Source: a virus
Taxonomy: Duplodnaviria; Heunggongvirae; Uroviricota; Caudoviricetes
Virus record (IMG/VR): IMGVR_UViG_2690316224_000006
Reading direction: 5' to 3' (one strand)
Length of the DNA stretch: 7,662 nucleotides
Both the position numbers and the translations under genes were made by a program. Each line of letters begins with the position of its first letter. The first letter of the stretch is position 1. A model generated the notes under the pieces. It had not been told where the DNA came from. It did not search any database and saw only the letters and a program-made list of their open reading frames with translations. Below are positions 95 to 7,662 of the stretch, piece by piece.

Positions 95-298
95 TTACTG
101 GCAGCGTCTGAATTTATTCCCGTACCCGCCGTTATCCTTCGCCAGACCCGCCAGAACTAACTGAGTCAGTATTAACTGGCACCGGGCTTCGCTTACTCCG
201 GTAGTTCTCGTCATCATGCGTGGCGTTACCCACTTGTCAGCAGGTAAGAAATGAAGGACTGCGGCGGCGGTTTCTGTCATATCTTGCTGTTTTAGCAT
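95..298 (-). CDS. small hypothetical protein (67 aa from ATG at 298; the ORF extends to ATG at 322 for 75 aa); possible winged-helix fold
   Basis: Minus-strand ORF with TAA stop at 95-97. The internal ATG at 298 is preceded by AGAAGGGAAAAAGAC (SD-like, about 8 nt spacing), whereas the ATG at 322 has no convincing SD. The segment TTGVSEARCQLILTQLVLAGLAKD resembles a helix-turn-helix / winged-helix recognition region. No family is recognised with certainty. Confidence 0.35.
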   Translation of the reverse strand: MLKQQDMTETAAAVLHFLPADKWVTPRMMTRTTGVSEARCQLILTQLVLAGLAKDNGGYGNKFRRCQ

Positions 299-420
299 GT
301 CTTTTTCCCTTCTGGTTAACATGACATACCAATAACTCTTGTCTAAAAAGCCAGCAAGATAAAAAGTCAGTATTCACGGCCACCAGCGTGTTTACTGTAC
401 TGCACCAAGTTTACAGGTAC

Positions 421-446
421 AAAAAAACCGCTCAGTGGCGGGTTGC
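421..446 (-). terminator. putative rho-independent terminator downstream of the lipoprotein gene (second copy of the tR'-like motif)
   Basis: Plus strand reads AAAAAAACCGCTCAGTGGCGGGTTGC. On the minus strand this is a short GC stem (CCGC/GCGG, 6-nt loop) followed directly by TTTTTTT. It matches the 1097-1124 terminator at about 22 of 24 positions. The stem is only 4 bp, so it is weaker than copy A. Confidence 0.3.
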
Positions 447-521
447 TATCACAGCTATATATTTACTTATTATGCCGTTACTAACATTTATCTTCGACAT
501 ATAATCGAAAACAAGGTTTGC

Positions 522-947
522 TTAAAACTCTGCTTTCATTTTATCCGGGAATTTTTTATTTGCAGCATAATAACTACCAAGTACATAAGCGTTCATTTGC
601 TGCTCTACATCAACCCGACATGCCGCACTAGAACAAGCTCCACTGATAAGCCCAAAAGAACTCCCTTTAGCAGAGAGATCAGCTTTGATTTCCTCTACAG
701 TGTTTTTCCCCATAGCAACTACACACCCTGTCACAATATATCTAGCCTTCACATCATCCATGCTAAGGATAGTAGTTTTCGCAATTTTGCTGTATCCATC
801 ATTTTTATAAACATCCATGGCAAACGCACGGCAATCTGTATAATACGGACTTGCTTTAACTTGCGAATACTCAGGTAATTTCATACCTGCACAACCAACC
901 AAACAAAAACCTATCGCTGCTATTAATACCTTTTTCATTACAGTCAT
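522..947 (-). CDS. predicted lipoprotein of unknown function, moron-like (141 aa; alternative start ATG at 938 gives MKKVLIAAIGFCLVGC...)
   Basis: The N-terminus has a positively charged n-region (MKK), a hydrophobic h-region and a lipobox LVGC, with Ala rather than Asp at +2 after the lipidated Cys. The mature part contains four further Cys. The gene lies in a clearly AT-rich island (about 450-1080) between two terminator-like hairpins. TAA stop at 522-524. The SD is weak for both candidate starts. Confidence 0.6.
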   Translation of the reverse strand: MTVMKKVLIAAIGFCLVGCAGMKLPEYSQVKASPYYTDCRAFAMDVYKNDGYSKIAKTTILSMDDVKARYIVTGCVVAMGKNTVEEIKADLSAKGSSFGLISGACSSAACRVDVEQQMNAYVLGSYYAANKKFPDKMKAEF

Positions 948-1096
948 AACCTAGAAGCATCATTGAAACTAATTTATTAAATAATCATCGAGTTTCTGGA
1001 ATACAGACGTTAACCATCTCTCCAAAATCTAAAAGATAATAAGAAAAAATGTTTAACGCACCAATCCATTTCATAGTTTCATGAGACATCAGGCAC

Positions 1097-1124
1097 AAAA
1101 AAACCCGCTCAGCGGCGGGTTTTT
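1097..1124 (-). terminator. rho-independent (bidirectional) terminator, tR'-like, downstream of Q
   Basis: Plus strand reads AAAAAAA-CCCGC-TCAGCG-GCGGG-TTTTT. This is a 5-bp GC stem flanked by an A7 tract and a T5 tract, so on the minus strand the hairpin is followed by seven U. It sits about 105 nt downstream of the Q stop codon (1228). Confidence 0.6.
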
Positions 1125-1167: not shown

Positions 1168-1196
1168 ATCTTATCCATATTTTTTGAAAAATGCAA
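1168..1196 (-). promoter_or_regulatory. candidate sigma70 late promoter (pR'-like) between Q and the terminator
   Basis: On the minus strand: TTGCAT (complement of 1191-1196), a 17-nt spacer, then TAAGAT (complement of 1168-1173). The match is 3/6 and 4/6 to the -35 and -10 consensus. Its position immediately after Q and before a terminator mirrors the lambda Q-pR'-tR' arrangement. Hand-scanned only, so this is weak. Confidence 0.25.
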
Positions 1197-1227: not shown

Positions 1228-1980
1228 CTATCTTGTCACTTTTCTCAATTGCGATTCAGCATACGCTTCTTCCTGCCAGCACTTTGTAACCAGTTTATTA
1301 ATAACGTCTGCATATCCTTTGTACCACTGATAATCCGTCAGGTCCGGTACCAGTTTCTGGACATGATGCCGCGCCAGTGTGGTTGGTAAACGGCTAAACC
1401 GGTTGCCATTGCAACGCCCACAAATCTTATAAACAGGCACACCATGAAGCCGGGTTCTTTTTTCATCCAGGACAATACCTTTACCCTTACACCCTCTGCA
1501 CGCTGTGCTGACTTCTCCCTTACCATGGCAATGCTGACATAGTTCCTTCACCCACTCTTCCTTGATAACAGATTCCCCGCTTCTGGAGTGTTTCACCACT
1601 TCGCGCAATACATTATGAAATCCAGTACCAGCACAATGCTCACAGCGAGCCTTACTTGCCGCAGACCTGGAATAATCAGCAAAGGCAAAATTCACAAGGT
1701 AAGGGATGATCTGTAACCGGGTTTCTTCACTCAATTTGTTCAATGTCGGGTTATCCAGTGCCATCGCGTAATTGAGCAGACCTTCAATCGCAAATTGAGG
1801 ATCCTGAACACCAACTTTTGCCAGGAATAAGGCAAACCCAAGCGGTGCTTTCGACTGCACCATCCCCTGCGCAGCCATCACATCCGTAATCGTTAAACCA
1901 CCTGAGCCTGTCACCGGTGCGTCATCGCTCAATTTTGGAGATTTTGGGGAGTAATATTTTGGTAAGGCTTCAAGGTTCAT
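1228..1980 (-). CDS. late-gene antitermination protein Q (250 aa, lambdoid Q family with a Cys-rich zinc-binding region)
   Basis: ATG at 1980 is preceded by GGAGAACGAGC (SD). The ORF track's longer form begins at an upstream GTG at 2022. The N-terminus MNLEALPKYYSPKSPKLSDDAPVTGSGG... is recognised from memory as a prophage Q antiterminator. It contains four CxxCxGxx-type cysteine pairs (CEHCAGTG, CQHCHGKG, CRGCKGKG, CGRCNGNR). Synteny supports the call: rusA ... DUF968, Q, then a terminator. Confidence 0.8.
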   Translation of the reverse strand: MNLEALPKYYSPKSPKLSDDAPVTGSGGLTITDVMAAQGMVQSKAPLGFALFLAKVGVQDPQFAIEGLLNYAMALDNPTLNKLSEETRLQIIPYLVNFAFADYSRSAASKARCEHCAGTGFHNVLREVVKHSRSGESVIKEEWVKELCQHCHGKGEVSTACRGCKGKGIVLDEKRTRLHGVPVYKICGRCNGNRFSRLPTTLARHHVQKLVPDLTDYQWYKGYADVINKLVTKCWQEEAYAESQLRKVTR

Positions 1981-1993
1981 GCTCGTTCTCCAC

Positions 1994-2989
1994 TTACGCC
2001 AGTACGCCAATTGCCAGCGCACGATCGATAAAACGAAATATCAGCTCCAGCTGGGAGCCATACTTCTCTTCAAATGCCACGGTATCCGCATGCAGCTCGT
2101 CGTGATGCTTTCTGCACAAAGGCAACACAAAGAGGTCATGCGCTTTTGTACCCATTCCCCTCTGACCGTGACCTATCAGGTGGTGGGGATCATCAGCAGG
2201 CTTTCCACAACATGCACACGGCTGTGTCTTAACCCAGCGCGTGTACTTTTCATTAACCCAGCGGCGGCGTTTTGGGCGTAACATAAAAGACTCCGGCGAC
2301 TCCGGATCCACTTTCAGCGCCAGCACCTTTTTTGCCTTATCCTGGATGATGCTGGTGGCAGGAACCGAAGGCACAAGGTCACTTTCCCGGGTGACAGACG
2401 GCACAACAGGCTTTGGTAATCTCAGTGCCTTACGGGCTGCACTTTCCGGTAAGGCATCCGCCAGGTCATTACGAATCAGCCACCAGCACAGTTCCGGCAT
2501 TGTCACAACGTGACTATCATCAAAACCGAGATCCCGACGCACAACAGACAACACCCAGCGGGCACAGTTATCCGTTGCCATTGATTCCAGCCGTTCCGTG
2601 AACTGATCGCGCAGCTGGTTATCGCAGTGCCAGCACAGACGGATTGCGCCCGGAGCGTGTCGCATTGTGGTCATGTTCTCGCTGTGCCAGTCGGAATGAG
2701 GCCACTGGCAGCCTTTTTCACGACGTAACCAGCTTTCAAGACATTCCACGCCACCAGCACGACGGATCACTGCCTCATTGCGGAACACGGCCCGAACGGC
2801 AGGATCATCCGCCAGCGGTTGTGATGCCGCCGGAACGGCACCACTGGCGAAAGATGAATAACGTTCCGGCTCAGGCTCCAGCAGAACACGCCCCTGCATA
2901 AACAGGGGCATCAGCTCTGAACCTGGCCTGAACAATACGATCCCCATACGCGGGGCAATTTCAGGGGTCAGTAGTGCTCTCACGGTCAC
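1994..2989 (-). CDS. DUF968-family phage protein with a C-terminal HNH-like Cys/His motif (start uncertain; GTG at 2989 or an internal ATG)
   Basis: A 331-aa ORF directly upstream of Q, as in Qin-type prophages where a DUF968 gene precedes Q. The C-terminus CACCGKPADDPHHLIGHGQRGMGTKAHDLFVLPLCRKHHDELH resembles an HNH / zinc-finger nuclease motif. The annotated start codon is GTG, adjacent to the KilA-N stop, and no strong SD is seen for any candidate start. Confidence 0.65.
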   Translation of the reverse strand: MTVRALLTPEIAPRMGIVLFRPGSELMPLFMQGRVLLEPEPERYSSFASGAVPAASQPLADDPAVRAVFRNEAVIRRAGGVECLESWLRREKGCQWPHSDWHSENMTTMRHAPGAIRLCWHCDNQLRDQFTERLESMATDNCARWVLSVVRRDLGFDDSHVVTMPELCWWLIRNDLADALPESAARKALRLPKPVVPSVTRESDLVPSVPATSIIQDKAKKVLALKVDPESPESFMLRPKRRRWVNEKYTRWVKTQPCACCGKPADDPHHLIGHGQRGMGTKAHDLFVLPLCRKHHDELHADTVAFEEKYGSQLELIFRFIDRALAIGVLA

Positions 2990-4532: not shown

Positions 4533-5182
4533 GCCGCCATCTCCCTGACCAGTTTTTCCGCCTGCTGGCGAACCTGCACCAGAAAGGCTTCACCACATGC
4601 CTCAAGTTCATCGCGCCCGATGTAGCTGATTGCCGGTCCCTTCCAGGTCTTGTCGAAAACAGCAATAGCACCAGCGAAGAAAGCGCCTGTCGGCACCTGC
4701 TTCTCATCCTTCGGGATAAACCAGGCAGGCAGTTCAAAACCAATACGCCCGCGAATAAAAGCAATATGGTCCGCATCTTCCGGCCACCACACTTCGCTGG
4801 TGGCAGCTTTGATCAGGAAAACATAGCGCCCGCCCTTATCACGCATGGCACTGGCATGTTTCATGATGTAACGCATGCCGGTGATGTATTGCCCCTCATG
4901 CTGACTGGCGCGGCTGTATGGGGGATTACCAAAGGCAGCACCTTTAAGCTCCGCAAGACGTTCTGACCAGTCATGCGCCAGCGCGTTATCTTCCGCCGTG
5001 TAATACGCGGCACATTTGGCGTTATCACCGTCAGTAAACAGATCCAGAACAAACGGGCCAAACAGGGTGTTAATTCCCCAGAAAATGTTGTCCGGCGTGC
5101 GCCACTGATCGCCCACTTCCTTCAGTTCATGGGCTGGTTTGTTCCGCAGTTCCACCAGCGCCTGGCAATATTTATTACTCAT
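4529..5182 (-). CDS. phage-type DNA N6-adenine methyltransferase (Dam family, orphan; 217 aa)
   Basis: The catalytic motif NPPY (FGNPPYS) is encoded at 4916-4927. An upstream W-R-T-P motif and the overall size match the phage Dam family. The ATG at 5182 overlaps the upstream TAA (TAATG). The ORF-track form to 5215 starts further upstream and is less likely. Confidence 0.85.
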   Translation of the reverse strand: MSNKYCQALVELRNKPAHELKEVGDQWRTPDNIFWGINTLFGPFVLDLFTDGDNAKCAAYYTAEDNALAHDWSERLAELKGAAFGNPPYSRASQHEGQYITGMRYIMKHASAMRDKGGRYVFLIKAATSEVWWPEDADHIAFIRGRIGFELPAWFIPKDEKQVPTGAFFAGAIAVFDKTWKGPAISYIGRDELEACGEAFLVQVRQQAEKLVREMAA

Positions 5183-5670
5183 TAAGCCCCCACGTAATTC
5201 CCTGACAGATACCACTCTTCACCCGATGCAGCGCGCTTGCTGCTTTTCCGTAAGCACCGCTCACGACGCGCCAGAAAATTGTTTCGTTCTGGCTGGGAGT
5301 GGCTTTCACGGAATGCCGCCATCCACACGGTTGCAGCACGACGGTATAAGCCCCTGGACTCCAGTTCTTCAGCCTGGCGGATCAGGCACAAAATCACCCG
5401 TGGATCGTTAGTGCCGACATAGAAATTGCGCACAGGTCTGGTTTCTCGAACTGGTTGTGGTTCCGGTTCCTGCGCTCTCTCAGTCAGGCGCGGGAAATGT
5501 CTGCGTGTATCTCCTTCACAACGGTGAGCCACACGCCCACTCTGACGTAACTTGCTTGCTGACTGCAGAACGCGCTGCCGTGAGTAACCTGCAAAAGCAT
5601 CCGCAATGTCTCCGGAAGTACACCCCGGATGGGCTTCAATGAATTTCTGAACTTCATTCAAAAGACTCAT
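5182..5670 (-). CDS. putative PerC-family-like transcriptional regulator with an N-terminal winged-helix-like extension (162 aa)
   Basis: ATG at 5670 is preceded by AGGGGGTGATC (SD-like) and lies 2 nt after the upstream TGA. The C-terminal segment LESRGLYRRAATVWMAAF...RRERCLRK resembles the PerC/Pch conserved core as remembered. The N-terminal 60 aa look like a small HTH, joined by a Pro/Glu-rich linker. The family call is from memory only. Confidence 0.45.
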   Translation of the reverse strand: MSLLNEVQKFIEAHPGCTSGDIADAFAGYSRQRVLQSASKLRQSGRVAHRCEGDTRRHFPRLTERAQEPEPQPVRETRPVRNFYVGTNDPRVILCLIRQAEELESRGLYRRAATVWMAAFRESHSQPERNNFLARRERCLRKSSKRAASGEEWYLSGNYVGA

Positions 5671-5672
5671 GA

Positions 5673-6089
5673 TCACCCCCTGAATCCTGCCGGGATCTGG
5701 CTGTAGTCCACGTTGTCGTAACTGGCTTTGAAGTACGGGTCCTCACGTCTGGCTGCAGATACCGCAGGAACTTCCCAGGATTCTTCGAAATGACGATCCG
5801 GACCAAAGAACGTGACAGCCTGTTTCACAAATTGTGTGCCGCTGTTACCCATCGCAGATACCCAGCCCGCGTAGCGTTTCACACCTTCCAGCATGGTTTC
5901 GGGGTTTACCCCCTCATTCAAACGGGCTTTCCAGGCTTTGAAGGCTGCAGATTTTGAATTGCCACCAGCACGTTTGGGATATACCAGCCATGCCTGCTCA
6001 AACTCCGGAGAGTATTCCGGTCGGTTTGAACGAACTCGCACGGACTCATCAACTGATGCACCAACAGCTATTGGTTCATTGACTGGTTC
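5673..6089 (-). CDS. replication initiation protein, C-terminal part (same gene as 6098-6696; broken by an assembly gap and duplicated flank)
   Basis: The open frame runs from the gap to TGA at 5673-5675. Its first 38 aa (RVRSNRPEYSPEFEQAWLVYPKRAGG...NPET) repeat the last residues of the upstream fragment, so the two fragments join in frame if one 197-bp copy plus the Ns is removed, giving about 272 aa in total. Confidence 0.6.
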   Translation of the reverse strand, partial: EPVNEPIAVGASVDESVRVRSNRPEYSPEFEQAWLVYPKRAGGNSKSAAFKAWKARLNEGVNPETMLEGVKRYAGWVSAMGNSGTQFVKQAVTFFGPDRHFEESWEVPAVSAARREDPYFKASYDNVDYSQIPAGFRG

Positions 6090-6294
6090 NNNNNNNNATG
6101 GTTTCGGGGTTTACCCCCTCATTCAAACGGGCTTTCCAGGCTTTGAAGGCTGCAGATTTTGAATTACCACCAGCACGTTTGGGATATGCCAGCCATGCCT
6201 GCTCAAACTCCGGAGAGTATTCCGGCCGGTTTGAACGAACTCGCACGGACTCATCAACTGATGCACCAACAGCTATTGGTTCATTGACTGGTTC
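5893..6294. repeat. 197-bp direct duplication (5893-6089 and 6098-6294, 3 mismatches) flanking an 8-N gap; probable scaffold-join artifact
   Basis: Directly read: the two copies are identical except for three substitutions (g/a, a/g, t/c). The N run at 6090-6097 separates them. Both copies encode the same peptide, with one V/A difference. Confidence 0.9.
6090..6097. other. assembly gap (NNNNNNNN)
   Basis: Eight ambiguous bases inside a coding region. Confidence 0.95.
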
Positions 6295-6696
6295 TTTGAC
6301 TGGTTCAAAAGAGTGACTGGTTCTGGGTGAATCTCCTGCACTACCCCCTGGTGCAACTCCTGCACTACCTGGTGAATTTGCTGCACCAGATAGTGAATTA
6401 TTTGCACTACCCCCTAGTGAATCTCCTGCACCATCCAGATGAAGGAGATAGATATTACTTGAGTTACCTTTTTCACCTTTCCGGGTGACTTTTTTTACCA
6501 GCCCGGACTCACAAAGGGCCGCAATATGATTCATCACAGAACGTTTGCTAATCTCGCACTGGTCAGCAATATGCTGGTAGCTGGGCCAGCACTCACCCTG
6601 ATCGCTGGCATTATCAGCCAGCTTGATCAGAACCAGTTTTCGCAATGGATTACCCACTCGAATTTTCATCGCTTTAACCATCAGCTCCATACTCAT
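6098..6696 (-). CDS. replication initiation protein, N-terminal part (HTH domain plus Gly/Ser/Ala-rich linker), O-like initiator
   Basis: ATG at 6696 is preceded by GGAGGTGCAGC (SD) and overlaps the upstream stop (ATGA). The N-terminus LRKLVLIKLADNASDQGECWPSYQHIADQCEISKRSVMNHIAALCESGLVKK is a typical phage replication-protein HTH of the HTH_36 type. The ORF-track stop at 6076 is an artifact of reading through the Ns. Confidence 0.65.
6285..6431. repeat. iteron-like short direct repeats inside the replication-initiator linker region (candidate origin)
   Basis: TGACTGGTTC occurs at 6285-6294, 6297-6306 and 6314-6323, and again at 6080-6089 in the duplicated copy. GTGAATCTCCTGCAC occurs at 6327-6341 and 6417-6431. 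The motif TGCACTACC(CCCT) recurs at about 6337, 6361 and 6403. A moderately AT-rich stretch follows at about 6440-6480. Confidence 0.35.
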
Positions 6697-6929
6697 GCTG
6701 CACCTCCGAGATGCTTCATGTTTTTTCCGGAGCGAAAGGCTATAAGCGGCATACTGACGCGGTAATTACGGCCAAGCGGTTCACAAATCACCTTCTGGCA
6801 TTCACGGTCAACCAGGCTAACACGTAGAACATGCCCTGCAGGTGTGGTGTACCACTGCCCAACTGTAGGAATTGATATTTTTTTACGCTGAAGTAAACGG
6901 TGAATATTGAGGATCAACGGATTAAGCAT
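6693..6929 (-). CDS. small phage protein, DUF4222-like (78 aa)
   Basis: ATG at 6929 is preceded by GGAGGGCATCGTC (SD) and overlaps the upstream gene by 8 nt. Its stop overlaps the replication gene start (ATGA). The pattern G..Y....G..L.V...(9)...V...(5)...G..Y..S.P...F resembles small prophage DUF4222 proteins as remembered. Confidence 0.5.
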   Translation of the reverse strand: MLNPLILNIHRLLQRKKISIPTVGQWYTTPAGHVLRVSLVDRECQKVICEPLGRNYRVSMPLIAFRSGKNMKHLGGAA

Positions 6930-7566
6930 GACGATGCCCTCCGCTGATATTCAGGAGACGGTGAATATGAAGATTAGCCTTATCCGCCAAACGAATACGT
7001 TCAGCCTGCAAGTTAAGAAGGGTTTCTACCAGAAGTTGATGCGCCTGCGGATCTGAAAGAGTTACCTTGCGCAGAGCACGTAGTGCTGTTGTTACATAAC
7101 TGAGTTTATGTAAGTCTTCATCATTCAGACGAGTGAGGGCTGGGACAGTAGCCATGATGGCAGCCTCCTTGATCGGTGAAATACTTCCACCACCGGAAAC
7201 GCCAATTTCGCTGGTGGTGAACTGAACGGGGTTGGCGTAACCGGTGATCAAGGAAACCGGCGCATCTTTCGATGCCCCCGCCCAGCCCACCATAACTTTG
7301 ATGTGAGCAAATGCGGACGATAAAAAAGACGCTGGCGCGTCATATATCGCCTTGATCAATTCCAGGACGCCAATCCCGGCACCCGCTTTATAAGGTGCCT
7401 GAACAGTGTAACGTCCCGGAATGGCAGAATCAATGTGCTGGTGGTCCTTCACACTCAACAAAATCACGCCTGAATTTCCACAAAGGACTAAAGCACTCAT
7501 GCGGGTAGTCTTTGCGAAGATAGATAACGCGCTGTGTTTCTGGCTCCCAACGAATAACATGAACAT
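6922..7566 (-). CDS. hypothetical phage early protein (214 aa from ATG at 7566; the ORF extends to GTG at 7623); possible Rossmann-like fold
   Basis: A long minus-strand ORF in the same operon. The ATG at 7566 is preceded by GAAGAGGACTTT (SD, about 5 nt spacing), while the GTG at 7623 has no SD. Gly-rich loops (KAGAGIGV, GVSGGGSIS) and a PVSLITGYA segment give a weak resemblance to DprA/SLOG-type nucleotide-binding folds. No confident family assignment. Confidence 0.5.
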   Translation of the reverse strand: MFMLFVGSQKHSALSIFAKTTRMSALVLCGNSGVILLSVKDHQHIDSAIPGRYTVQAPYKAGAGIGVLELIKAIYDAPASFLSSAFAHIKVMVGWAGASKDAPVSLITGYANPVQFTTSEIGVSGGGSISPIKEAAIMATVPALTRLNDEDLHKLSYVTTALRALRKVTLSDPQAHQLLVETLLNLQAERIRLADKANLHIHRLLNISGGHRHA

Positions 7567-7662
7567 AAAGTCCTCTTCCGTCACTAAACCAGCGGTTAAG
7601 TTCCTGCACAACTCGCCCCCCACAGTCAGGTAAAGTTCTCTGTGGTTACTTACAGCCAGGTG

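What the first reader, a model, noticed from the sequence alone, without database searches (positions are those of the whole stretch)
522..947. Uncharacterised Cys-containing lipoprotein as late-expressed prophage cargo
The protein has a clean lipoprotein signal (MKKVLIAAIGFCLVG-C, with Ala at +2, which by the Lol sorting rule predicts outer-membrane sorting). The mature domain of about 120 aa has four further Cys, suggesting periplasmic disulfides. I do not recognise it as Bor, Lom, Cor or another known lambdoid moron. Candidate roles are superinfection exclusion, serum resistance or lysis modulation.
Basis: partly seen in the sequence, partly recalled or inferred. Interest (0 to 1): 0.6.

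Follow-up and report, generated by a model that had tools for sequence, protein, structure and literature searches.

The report
Orphan outer-membrane lipoprotein cargo gene in prophage
A real, well-conserved but functionally unknown outer-membrane lipoprotein gene sits as a 676-base add-on cassette just after the late-gene switch (Q) of a lambda-like E. coli prophage; it is an ordinary kind of phage cargo gene ("moron") from a family nobody has characterised.

Summary
Window 522-947 (minus strand) encodes a 141-aa protein; the start conserved in a Salmonella homologue is probably at 938, giving 138 aa. It has a lipobox L-V-G-C, Ala at +2, and four further Cys that are conserved across the family. 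The gene is under strong purifying selection (dN/dS 0.08 against Salmonella). It is 100% identical in phages mEp460, Ayreon and Stx2c phages, and occurs in 215 of 5426 complete E. coli genomes.

It belongs to PHROG 4748 (unknown function), an Enterobacterales-only family with no Pfam, NCBIfam or PADLOC match. Its predicted four-helix bundle has no specific structural relative. It is not Bor, Cor, Llp or Lom.

It is a discrete AT-rich cassette, bracketed by a 32-nt duplication of the tR'-like terminator downstream of Q. A natural empty-site allele exists. Relatives sit after three different Q families, in an early region, inside a tail operon, on phage-plasmids (paired with a second lipoprotein) and on the Serratia chromosome.

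Function is unresolved. My best guess, about one in three, is an envelope-level protective role such as phage exclusion. It is not coupled to the phage's own receptor-binding protein. Interest is modest.

The parts
522..947 (-). Lipoprotein ORF including stop codon (141 aa from the ATG at 947; probable true start is the ATG at 938, giving 138 aa)
   Evidence: ORF and translation; phrog_4748, E 7.5e-91, full length; dN/dS 0.078; start at 938 conserved and annotated in mEp460
891..947 (-). Signal peptide (residues 1-18) plus the lipobox Cys19 codon (891-893); lipobox L-V-G-C, followed by Ala at +2 and Gly at +3
   Evidence: rule-based check on all homologues; G-C invariant, no Asp at +2; aligns with the leaders of Bor, Cor and Llp
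525..890 (-). Mature domain of 122 aa after the lipidated Cys. Predicted four-helix bundle. Conserved Cys39 (831-833), Cys75 (723-725), Cys105 (633-635) and Cys110 (618-620).
   Evidence: invariant Cys; AF2 models, pLDDT 79 and 78, helices only; no specific structural neighbour
1090..1121 (-). Upstream intrinsic terminator (tR'-like): AACCCGCCGCUGAGCGGGUUUUUUU. This is the left copy of the 32-nt direct repeat.
   Evidence: -17 kcal/mol, z -3.2; repeat; 0 expected by chance; Ayreon annotators mark a terminator at the equivalent place
414..444 (-). Downstream copy of the terminator repeat (29 of 32 identical to the upstream copy, with one G lost from the stem, so a weaker hairpin here). It is intact in Stx2c phages.
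414..1089 (-). The 676-bp cargo cassette (leader, lipoprotein gene and terminator copy), absent from the empty-site allele
   Evidence: L008, NZ_CP039404.1: single 600-nt match at 99% to the in-silico deletion product; GC 38.7%, GC3 29.6%, against 48-56% and 47-64% in neighbouring genes
1168..1196 (-). Candidate late promoter pR': TTGCAT-17 nt-TAAGAT, between the Q stop codon and the terminator. Inferred only.
   Evidence: read; a similar motif lies at the same place in Salmonella locus L005. It was not picked up by the consensus scan.
1036..1064 (-). Candidate weak own promoter in the leader: TTGGTG-17 nt-TATTAT. Inferred only.
   Evidence: read; the equivalent TTGGTA-18-TATCAT in L005 was scored by the scan, but at a frequency that chance allows
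1228..2022 (-). Antitermination protein Q gene (Pfam Antiterm PF03589 plus a DnaJ-type zinc finger), directly upstream
   Evidence: annotated ydfT/antitermination protein Q in near-identical prophages
95..322 (-). Next gene of the late transcript, a small hypothetical protein (RefSeq WP_000917724.1, annotated TrmB-family in one phage). It flanks the cassette and is retained in the empty-site allele.

Best explanation
Shown. The ORF is a genuine gene for a lipoprotein precursor. It is carried on a self-contained, AT-rich 676-bp cassette (a 'moron'). The cassette is inserted at the tR'-like terminator immediately downstream of the late-gene antiterminator Q of a lambdoid E. coli prophage, and the insertion duplicates that terminator.

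Inferred from established rules.
- Lgt, LspA and Lnt lipidate Cys19 and remove the leader.
- With Ala at +2, the Lol system delivers the protein to the inner leaflet of the outer membrane.
- The 122-aa mature domain folds in the periplasm into a compact four-helix bundle locked by two DsbA-made disulfides.
- Transcription comes from pR' when Q lets RNA polymerase read through the terminators. The gene is therefore the first late ORF, and in Stx2c and Stx2k phages it lies upstream of stx2.
- A weak promoter in the gene's own leader may also express it in lysogens. Family members in non-late contexts must have a promoter of their own.

Inferred mechanism, my committed guess at about one in three. 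The tethered helical domain binds an envelope component at the periplasmic face of the outer membrane and protects the carrier cell, most likely by blocking adsorption or DNA entry of other phages. This would work like Cor and Llp but without homology to them, and without being tied to the carrier phage's own receptor.
For: Gene reality and conservation.

Lipoprotein signal and +2 rule across the whole family. The leaders of Bor, Cor and Llp align with it.

Cassette nature: flanking 32-nt terminator repeat; a natural empty site at 99% identity; deviant base composition.

Late-operon position: Q, then terminator, then this gene, then a small gene, a methylase and the lysis genes, all on one strand. 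In an Stx2c phage the order is Q, terminator, gene, terminator, stx2c.

Mobility as independent cargo: it follows three unrelated Q families, and also sits in an early region, a tail operon, phage-plasmids and plasmids, and a chromosome. Where the upstream neighbour is divergent, the gene needs its own promoter.

Helical, Cys-locked mature domain.

Prior for the role: the characterised small non-spanin phage outer-membrane lipoproteins of enterobacteria are Cor and Llp (exclusion) and Bor (serum resistance). This rests on established knowledge, not on a test here.
Against: - No experiment or homology links the protein to any function.
- PADLOC defence models do not hit it.
- The cassette is not linked to a receptor-binding protein. 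It occurs with two different J C-terminal domains, and one of these also occurs in a prophage lacking the cassette. It also occurs with unrelated virion modules.
- A stable chromosomal copy in Serratia beside an efflux operon points to a cellular rather than an anti-phage role.
- Neither promoter reaches the consensus threshold.
- The AF2 models rest on only 8 sequences, and the lower-ranked models are poor.
Confidence: 0.4

Rival explanations
1. Lysogenic-conversion fitness or virulence factor of the Bor/Iss kind. The outer-membrane lipoprotein would be expressed in the lysogen and would raise resistance of the host to complement, antimicrobial peptides, bile or other envelope stress. It would have no role in phage-phage competition.
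For: - The distribution resembles bor/iss: prophages, plasmids and a chromosome.
- It is not linked to the receptor-binding protein.
- It is found in human, animal, APEC, STEC and ST131-type isolates.
- The alternative cargo at the very same site in UTI89 is another lipoprotein.
- In Serratia it lies beside an EmrAB-like efflux operon.
Against: - The mature domain has no homology to Bor.
- No expression data exist for lysogens, and the candidate own promoter is weak.
- The gene is in only 4% of complete E. coli genomes, with no obvious pathotype restriction.
Confidence: 0.25
2. Orphan immunity or inhibitor protein. The periplasmic helical domain would neutralise a periplasm-acting toxin or cell-wall hydrolase, such as a T6SS amidase or muramidase effector, a colicin or pesticin-type bacteriocin, or a lysozyme.
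For: - It is a small, disulfide-bonded, all-helical, periplasm-facing protein.
- It is carried as stand-alone cargo on many mobile elements.
- On phage-plasmids it forms a tandem with a second small lipoprotein, as orphan immunity arrays often do. That comparison is from established knowledge and was not tested here.
Against: - No Pfam or NCBIfam hit, including known lysozyme-inhibitor families, at E up to 10 for any of 8 members.
- No cognate toxin gene lies nearby in any locus inspected.
Confidence: 0.12
3. Late-stage helper of the phage itself. It would be made at lysis time to tune lysis (holin, endolysin or spanin steps), or to stop progeny virions from adsorbing to debris of the lysed cell, as T5 Llp does.
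For: - It is the first ORF of the Q-dependent late transcript, upstream of the lysis cassette, here and in Salmonella and Hafnia prophages that have three different Q types.
Against: - The neighbouring lysis cassettes are of unrelated types: EssD/RrrD, lambda S-type, holin_8 with GH19, and M15 peptidase.
- Other family members lie far from lysis genes, in replication or early modules, or outside prophages.
- Prophages with the empty site have the same late operon.
- It is not coupled to the receptor-binding domain.
Confidence: 0.1
4. Chance ORF or decaying pseudogene in an AT-rich intergenic spacer.
For: AT-rich region, no strong Shine-Dalgarno sequence, and no known domain.
Against: dN/dS 0.078. 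Family members share 54-98% identity with this protein, apart from one distant 28% relative, across at least ten Enterobacterales genera, with about 60 columns invariant among the closer members, including the lipobox and four Cys. Full-length PHROG hit.
Confidence: 0.01

Closest known systems
PHROG family phrog_4748 (unknown function); identical proteins mEp460_051 (AFM76088.1), Ayreon SJJBTUD_0051, RefSeq WP_000217632.1
   Same: Full-length match at E 7.5e-91. 100% identical protein in phages mEp460 and Ayreon and in 15 Stx2c phages. Same position after Q.
   Different: Nothing; this is the family itself. It carries no functional annotation anywhere, and no paper in the searchable library mentions its accessions.
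Cor (HK022, phi80, N15) and Llp (T5): phage outer-membrane lipoproteins that block the FhuA receptor (superinfection exclusion)
   Same: Phage-encoded, with the same kind of lipoprotein leader, no Asp at +2, and a small Cys-containing mature domain acting from the periplasmic side of the outer membrane. The leaders align.
   Different: No similarity beyond the signal peptide (hhalign probability 18-21%). The mature part is twice as long (122 aa against about 60). The gene is not adjacent to, and does not co-vary with, the receptor-binding protein gene.
Bor (lambda) / Iss: outer-membrane lipoprotein moron conferring serum resistance
   Same: A lambdoid moron in the late and lysis neighbourhood that encodes an outer-membrane lipoprotein and is also found on plasmids. 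The leader aligns.
   Different: No homology of the mature domain. bor lies after Rz on the opposite strand, whereas this gene lies between Q and the lysis genes on the late strand.
Cargo at the Q-proximal late site of lambdoid phages (the stx position) and the classical 'moron' unit of Juhala/Hendrix
   Same: A discrete insertion with deviant GC content and its own terminator, present or absent between otherwise identical phages. The site is a hot spot: it is empty in L008, holds this cassette here, holds another lipoprotein in reverse orientation in UTI89, and holds this cassette plus tRNAs plus stx2 in Stx2c and Stx2k phages.
   Different: An own sigma-70 promoter, part of the classical definition, is not convincingly present. 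The cassette is bounded by a duplication of the resident terminator rather than by unique ends.

Membership tests
Bacterial lipoprotein (Lgt/LspA/Lnt substrate) | N-terminal positively charged n-region, a hydrophobic h-region, and a lipobox [LVI][ASTVI][GAS]-C with the Cys within residues 15-35 | tested here: met
   KK, then VLIAAIGFCLV, then L-V-G-C19 (C16 from the 938 start). G-C is invariant in all homologues. The strict PROSITE-like pattern fails only because of the non-conserved Cys15 at position -4.
Bacterial lipoprotein (Lgt/LspA/Lnt substrate) | Actual lipid modification and signal peptidase II cleavage (palmitate labelling, globomycin sensitivity); prediction by SignalP or LipoP | not testable with these tools
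   No dedicated predictor and no experiment was available.
Outer-membrane-sorted lipoprotein (Lol pathway) | No Asp at position +2 (the inner-membrane retention signal) | tested here: met
   Position +2 is Ala here, and Ala, Ser or Val in all family members.
Phage moron (Juhala et al./Hendrix definition) | Discrete extra DNA that is present in one phage and absent from close relatives | tested here: met
   Empty-site allele L008 at 99% identity, with a single 600-nt alignment across the junction. H65 is a second example.
Phage moron (Juhala et al./Hendrix definition) | Base composition different from the flanking phage genes | tested here: met
   GC 38.7% and GC3 29.6%, against 48-56% and 47-64% in neighbouring genes.
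Phage moron (Juhala et al./Hendrix definition) | Own factor-independent terminator downstream | tested here: met
   Terminator repeat at 414-444. It is weakened in this allele but intact in the Stx2c phage, and it is annotated as a terminator in Ayreon.
Phage moron (Juhala et al./Hendrix definition) | Own sigma-70 promoter allowing expression from the repressed prophage | tested here: inconclusive
   Only an 8/12 match (TTGGTG-17-TATTAT, 1036-1064). The equivalent 9/12 site in L005 occurs at a frequency that chance allows. Relatives with divergent upstream neighbours imply a promoter exists in those contexts.
Bor/Iss family | Sequence homology of the mature domain | tested here: not met
   hhalign of the family profile against lambda Bor aligns only residues 1-23, the signal peptide (probability 33%). 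No Pfam hit.
Cor superinfection-exclusion family | Sequence homology, and a location next to the tail-tip receptor-binding gene | tested here: not met
   Only the leader aligns (probability 18%). The gene lies after Q, far from J. The J receptor-binding domain type is not coupled to the cassette.
T5 Llp (lytic conversion lipoprotein) family | Sequence homology of the mature domain | tested here: not met
   Only the leader and a few following residues align (probability 21%).
Lom/Ail outer-membrane beta-barrel family | Ail/Lom Pfam domain; beta-barrel fold | tested here: not met
   No Pfam hit at E up to 10. The predicted fold is all-helical.
Known anti-phage defence systems (PADLOC-DB 2.0) | Match to any model protein | tested here: not met
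   0 families at E up to 1.
phrog_4748 | Full-length profile match | tested here: met
   E 7.5e-91, residues 1-141 against profile positions 1-141 of 141.

The most novel reading that the evidence does not exclude
The protein founds a new, Enterobacterales-specific family of mobile-element-borne outer-membrane lipoproteins. Its disulfide-locked helical fold would be unlike any solved structure. It would protect the carrier cell at the envelope by a mechanism distinct from Cor, Llp and Bor, for example by blocking a step common to many phages or toxins. On phage-plasmids it would work together with a second lipoprotein (phrog_7666). A side consequence: in Stx2c and Stx2k phages the cassette puts an extra ORF and a second intact terminator between pR' and stx2, and so could influence toxin output.
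Probability: 0.25. Interest if true: 0.55.

Novelty: new member of a known kind. Interest (0 to 1): 0.3.

Why it matters
Prophage cargo lipoproteins are a recurrent source of exclusion, serum-resistance and virulence traits, and most of them remain unassigned. This one has several features that make it a cheap and well-defined target for a cloning, exclusion and envelope-stress screen.

- It is common, occurring in 4% of complete E. coli genomes. It is also found in Salmonella, Klebsiella phage-plasmids and other Enterobacterales.
- It is highly conserved.
- It has natural isogenic 'with' and 'without' alleles.
- In Stx2c and Stx2k phages it is the first gene of the transcript that carries the Shiga toxin genes.

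If it proves to be a new exclusion or protection mechanism, it would add a family to the short list of characterised phage outer-membrane lipoproteins. As it stands, it is a normal uncharacterised moron.

Tried and rejected
1. Sequence homology. Pfam, NCBIfam and PADLOC gave nothing. Scanning all 8 family members against Pfam at E up to 10 gave only scattered single hits. A profile search of PDB sequences gave only insignificant uL14m matches.

2. Deep searches. An exhaustive HMMER profile search of 1.84 billion representatives found 8 hits, all in the same family. A second profile search of 5.8 billion clusters found 34 clusters, all Enterobacterales and all 'hypothetical'. No annotated distant relative emerged.

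4. Literature. Accessions and locus tags gave no papers. A DFI-seq hit for UTI89_C5108 (PMC5404293) looked like expression evidence. UTI89 turned out to carry a different Q and a different, reverse-oriented lipoprotein at that site, so the hit does not apply. PMC9928086 was irrelevant.

5. Coupling of the cassette to the receptor-binding domain of J was tested and not found, in a small sample of n = 6.

6. Rfam matches over the leader are sub-threshold hits to attenuator leaders, caused by the terminator hairpin only.

7. The overlapping plus-strand ORF 435-878 was disregarded: all the conservation evidence is for the minus-strand frame.

Full report
**1. What is at the coordinates**

The window carries an uninterrupted ORF at 522-947 on the minus strand, 141 aa plus stop. 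Its N-terminus is MTVMKKVLIAAIGFCLVG-C-AGM. It has two lysines, a hydrophobic stretch of about 11 residues, and a lipobox L-V-G-C with the Cys at residue 19.

A rule-based check shows the DOLOP lipobox is met. Gly-Cys is invariant in every homologue, and no family member has Asp at +2. By the Lol sorting rule (established knowledge) the mature protein should therefore go to the outer membrane.

The signal peptides of lambda Bor, HK022 Cor and a T5-type Llp align with this leader.

The ATG at 938 (MKK...) is the start that is conserved with the Salmonella homologue and used in the mEp460 record. The 947 start is the RefSeq choice.

The mature part is 122 aa, about 13.3 kDa, with pI 8.6. It contains Cys39, Cys75, Cys105 and Cys110. 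These four are invariant in eight homologues with 54-98% identity to this protein. They are retained, with the last one shifted, in the most distant relative, which has 28% identity. Cys15 in the leader is not conserved.

SignalP and LipoP were not available.

**2. It is a real gene**

- The protein matches PHROG phrog_4748 (unknown function) end to end, at E 7.5e-91.
- Against the Salmonella homologue, dN/dS is 0.078.
- The identical protein is on record from at least 1000 contigs.
- It is 100% identical in phages mEp460 and Ayreon and in 15 Stx2c-converting phages.
- The gene occurs in 215 of 5426 complete E. coli genomes, always on the chromosome, at 97.9-100% nucleotide identity.

**3. No known relatives**

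Sequence searches:
- Pfam, NCBIfam and PADLOC give no hit. Scanning eight family members individually against Pfam at E up to 10 gives nothing consistent.
- A profile search of all PDB sequences gives only insignificant matches.
- An exhaustive HMMER profile search of 1.84 billion representative proteins finds eight hits, all of the same family.
- A second profile search that included the distant member finds 34 clusters. The named sources are Escherichia, Salmonella, Citrobacter, Klebsiella, Enterobacter, Hafnia, Edwardsiella, Serratia and Buttiauxella, with Kluyvera. Every name given is 'hypothetical protein' or UniProt's automatic 'Lipoprotein'.

Structure:
- Two AlphaFold2 models were made, one of the full length and one of the mature part. 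Mean pLDDT is 79 and 78, and pTM is 0.75 and 0.77.
- They agree on an all-helical bundle with four main helices. The alignment has only 8 sequences and the lower-ranked models are poor, so the fold is provisional.
- Foldseek against viral models and against the PDB has nothing at E <= 0.001. AFDB could not be searched.

Direct comparisons:
- Profile comparisons with Bor, Cor and Llp align only the signal peptides.
- Lom is excluded by the absence of any Pfam hit and by the helical prediction.

No paper in the searchable library cites the accessions.

**4. Genetic anatomy: a cassette at the late terminator**

The upstream gene (1228-2022, minus strand) is antiterminator Q, with Pfam Antiterm PF03589 plus a DnaJ-type zinc finger. 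The rest of the window is a lambdoid early-right region: DUF968, KilA-N, RusA, a LexA-like protein, Dam, PerC and a replication protein.

About 100 nt after the Q stop codon there is a strong intrinsic terminator, AACCCGCCGCUGAGCGGGUUUUUUU, at 1090-1121. It folds at -17 kcal/mol with z -3.2. A plausible pR' (TTGCAT-17-TAAGAT, 1168-1196) lies between Q and this terminator. I read this promoter from the sequence; it is not a consensus-grade match.

The lipoprotein gene follows after a 141-nt, 30%-GC leader.

After the gene, at 414-444, the same terminator sequence recurs, with 29 of 32 positions identical. The start-to-start spacing is 676 bp, and no such pair is expected by chance. In this allele the second copy has lost one stem G and folds weakly. 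In an Stx2c phage it is intact. The annotators of Ayreon independently marked terminators on both sides of the gene.

I built the in-silico deletion product, with one terminator copy and no cassette, and searched complete E. coli genomes. Strains 377323_2f and 14EC007 match it in a single piece at 99%. The alignment shows Q, one terminator and the next gene with exactly the cassette missing.

The cassette has 38.7% GC (GC3 29.6%), against 48-56% (GC3 47-64%) in the neighbouring genes.

This is the classical signature of a moron. One element is not convincingly present: an own sigma-70 promoter. The best candidate is TTGGTG-17-TATTAT at 1036-1064. An equivalent site exists in the Salmonella locus, but at a frequency that chance allows.

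**5. Where the family sits elsewhere**

| Context | Locus / organism |
|---|---|
| Directly after Q, before the lysis genes; three unrelated Q families (PF03589; DUF1133/PF06530; PF06323) and unrelated lysis cassettes | this window; Salmonella L005; Hafnia L019 |
| Rac-like early region, after a divergent gene | L006 |
| Between the tape-measure and gpM tail genes | Enterobacter prophage L023 |
| Replication module of phage-plasmids and plasmids, followed 10 nt later by a second 99-aa lipoprotein (phrog_7666, unknown function) | Klebsiella, Buttiauxella, Edwardsiella |
| Non-prophage chromosomal position, between an EmrAB-like efflux operon and the SpoU-methylase and trxC genes | Serratia L024/L025 |
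| Transposon-rich region | distant member P0015, L004 |

Late expression is therefore a property of this particular insertion site, not of the family. Where the upstream neighbour is divergent, the gene must have a promoter of its own.

The Q-proximal site itself is a cargo hot spot:
- It is empty in L008.
- It holds this cassette in the window.
- In UTI89 it holds a different lipoprotein (phrog_3152) in reverse orientation.
- In Stx2k and Stx2c phages it holds this cassette followed by stx2AB, with tRNA genes in between in the annotated Stx2k phage.

**6. How it most likely works**

Shown:
- a conserved gene;
- a lipoprotein-type leader;
- no inner-membrane retention signal;
- four conserved Cys;
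- cassette structure;
- a position as the first ORF downstream of Q and the terminator, on the late strand.

Inferred from established pathways:
- lipidation and cleavage by Lgt, LspA and Lnt;
- Lol-mediated delivery to the inner leaflet of the outer membrane;
- DsbA-made disulfides stabilising a compact helical domain that faces the periplasm;
- transcription by Q-modified polymerase reading through both terminators, possibly supplemented by a weak own promoter.

The biochemical role is not determined by anything I could compute. I commit to an envelope-level protective function exerted by binding an outer-membrane or periplasmic partner. Phage exclusion is the single most likely outcome, at roughly one in three, because that is what the characterised small non-spanin phage outer-membrane lipoproteins (Cor, Llp) do.

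Against a Cor/Llp-type masking of the phage's own receptor:
- The cassette is not next to the tail-tip gene.
- Cassette-bearing phages carry two different J C-terminal domains. mEp460, Ayreon, Stx2k and Stx2c share 89-96% identity with one another, while PhiR47_1 has only 55-62% to them.
- The PhiR47_1-type domain also occurs, at 96% identity, in the empty-site prophage.
- The sample is small (n = 6).

Rival explanations:
- A Bor/Iss-like host-fitness role (0.25). The phage, plasmid and chromosome distribution and the Serratia context favour it.
- An orphan immunity or inhibitor protein (0.12). No toxin gene lies nearby and there is no fold match.
- A lysis or virion-release helper (0.10). There is no linkage to any lysis type, and prophages with the empty site keep the same late operon.

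**7. Novelty and verdict**

The gene is already in the databases as a hypothetical protein and a PHROG of unknown function. What is added here:
- the cassette boundaries and the terminator duplication;
- the empty-site allele;
- the breadth of contexts;
- the negative membership tests.

It is a new, uncharacterised member of a well-known kind, the prophage moron encoding an outer-membrane lipoprotein. A specialist would not be surprised.

It remains a tidy experimental target, because natural isogenic alleles exist and because it lies on the stx2 transcript path in Stx2c and Stx2k phages. Interest 0.3.

Noticed in passing
window 5893-6294 (N run at 6090-6097): Eight Ns are flanked by a 197-nt direct duplication (5893-6089 and 6098-6294, 98% identical). 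This splits the replication-protein gene into ORFs 6076-6696 and 5673-6041. It looks like a scaffold join or assembly artefact rather than biology; the equivalent gene is intact (942 nt) in strain 2EC1.
   Followed up: partly
window 7210-7297 and 7322-7398, minus strand: Rfam matches above the gathering score to C4 antisense RNA (82 bits) and to the isrK Hfq-binding sRNA (64 bits). Both lie inside or at the head of the long ORF 6922-7623, whose product has an Ash-family domain. This is a P1/P7-type c4-controlled antirepressor-like immunity element in a lambdoid prophage.
   Followed up: no
L009 (E. coli UTI89, NC_007946.1) 37984-38430, minus strand in the locus: At the same Q-proximal site, UTI89 carries a different Q and a different cargo gene in reverse orientation. 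It is a 148-aa protein with a lipobox I-S-G-C (phrog_3152, unknown function). The site seems to collect lipoprotein morons.
   Followed up: partly
L007 6446-6745; L021 5466-5765; L026 3431-3730: On Klebsiella, Buttiauxella and Edwardsiella phage-plasmids and plasmids, the family gene is followed 10 nt later by a second conserved lipoprotein of 99 aa (lipobox L-S-G-C or L-Y-G-C, phrog_7666, unknown function). This suggests a two-lipoprotein operon. The partner is absent from the window.
   Followed up: partly
L016 (Stx2c phage LC727877.1) 14666-19405; L003 (Stx2k phage) 4968-9307: In Stx2c and Stx2k phages the identical cassette, with two intact terminator copies in the Stx2c phage, lies between Q and stx2AB on the same strand. 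The toxin transcript must therefore pass through it.
   Followed up: partly
L024/L025 (Serratia) 5001-5429: A family member (56% identity) sits in a non-prophage chromosomal position between a MarR-OEP-EmrA-EmrB-like efflux operon and the SpoU-methylase and trxC genes. It may be the ancestral cellular copy of the phage-borne gene.
   Followed up: no
window 6327-6431: Three imperfect copies of a 39-nt unit (62-82% identity to the reference copy) lie inside the replication-protein ORF. They might be origin iterons of the lambda O type, or simply a low-complexity coding repeat.
   Followed up: no
L019 (Hafnia prophage) 5615-7750: Between the lipoprotein and the holin, the Hafnia prophage late region also carries a ParE-toxin/HTH pair and a full-length flagellin gene on the opposite strand. 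This is unusual cargo for that position.
   Followed up: no
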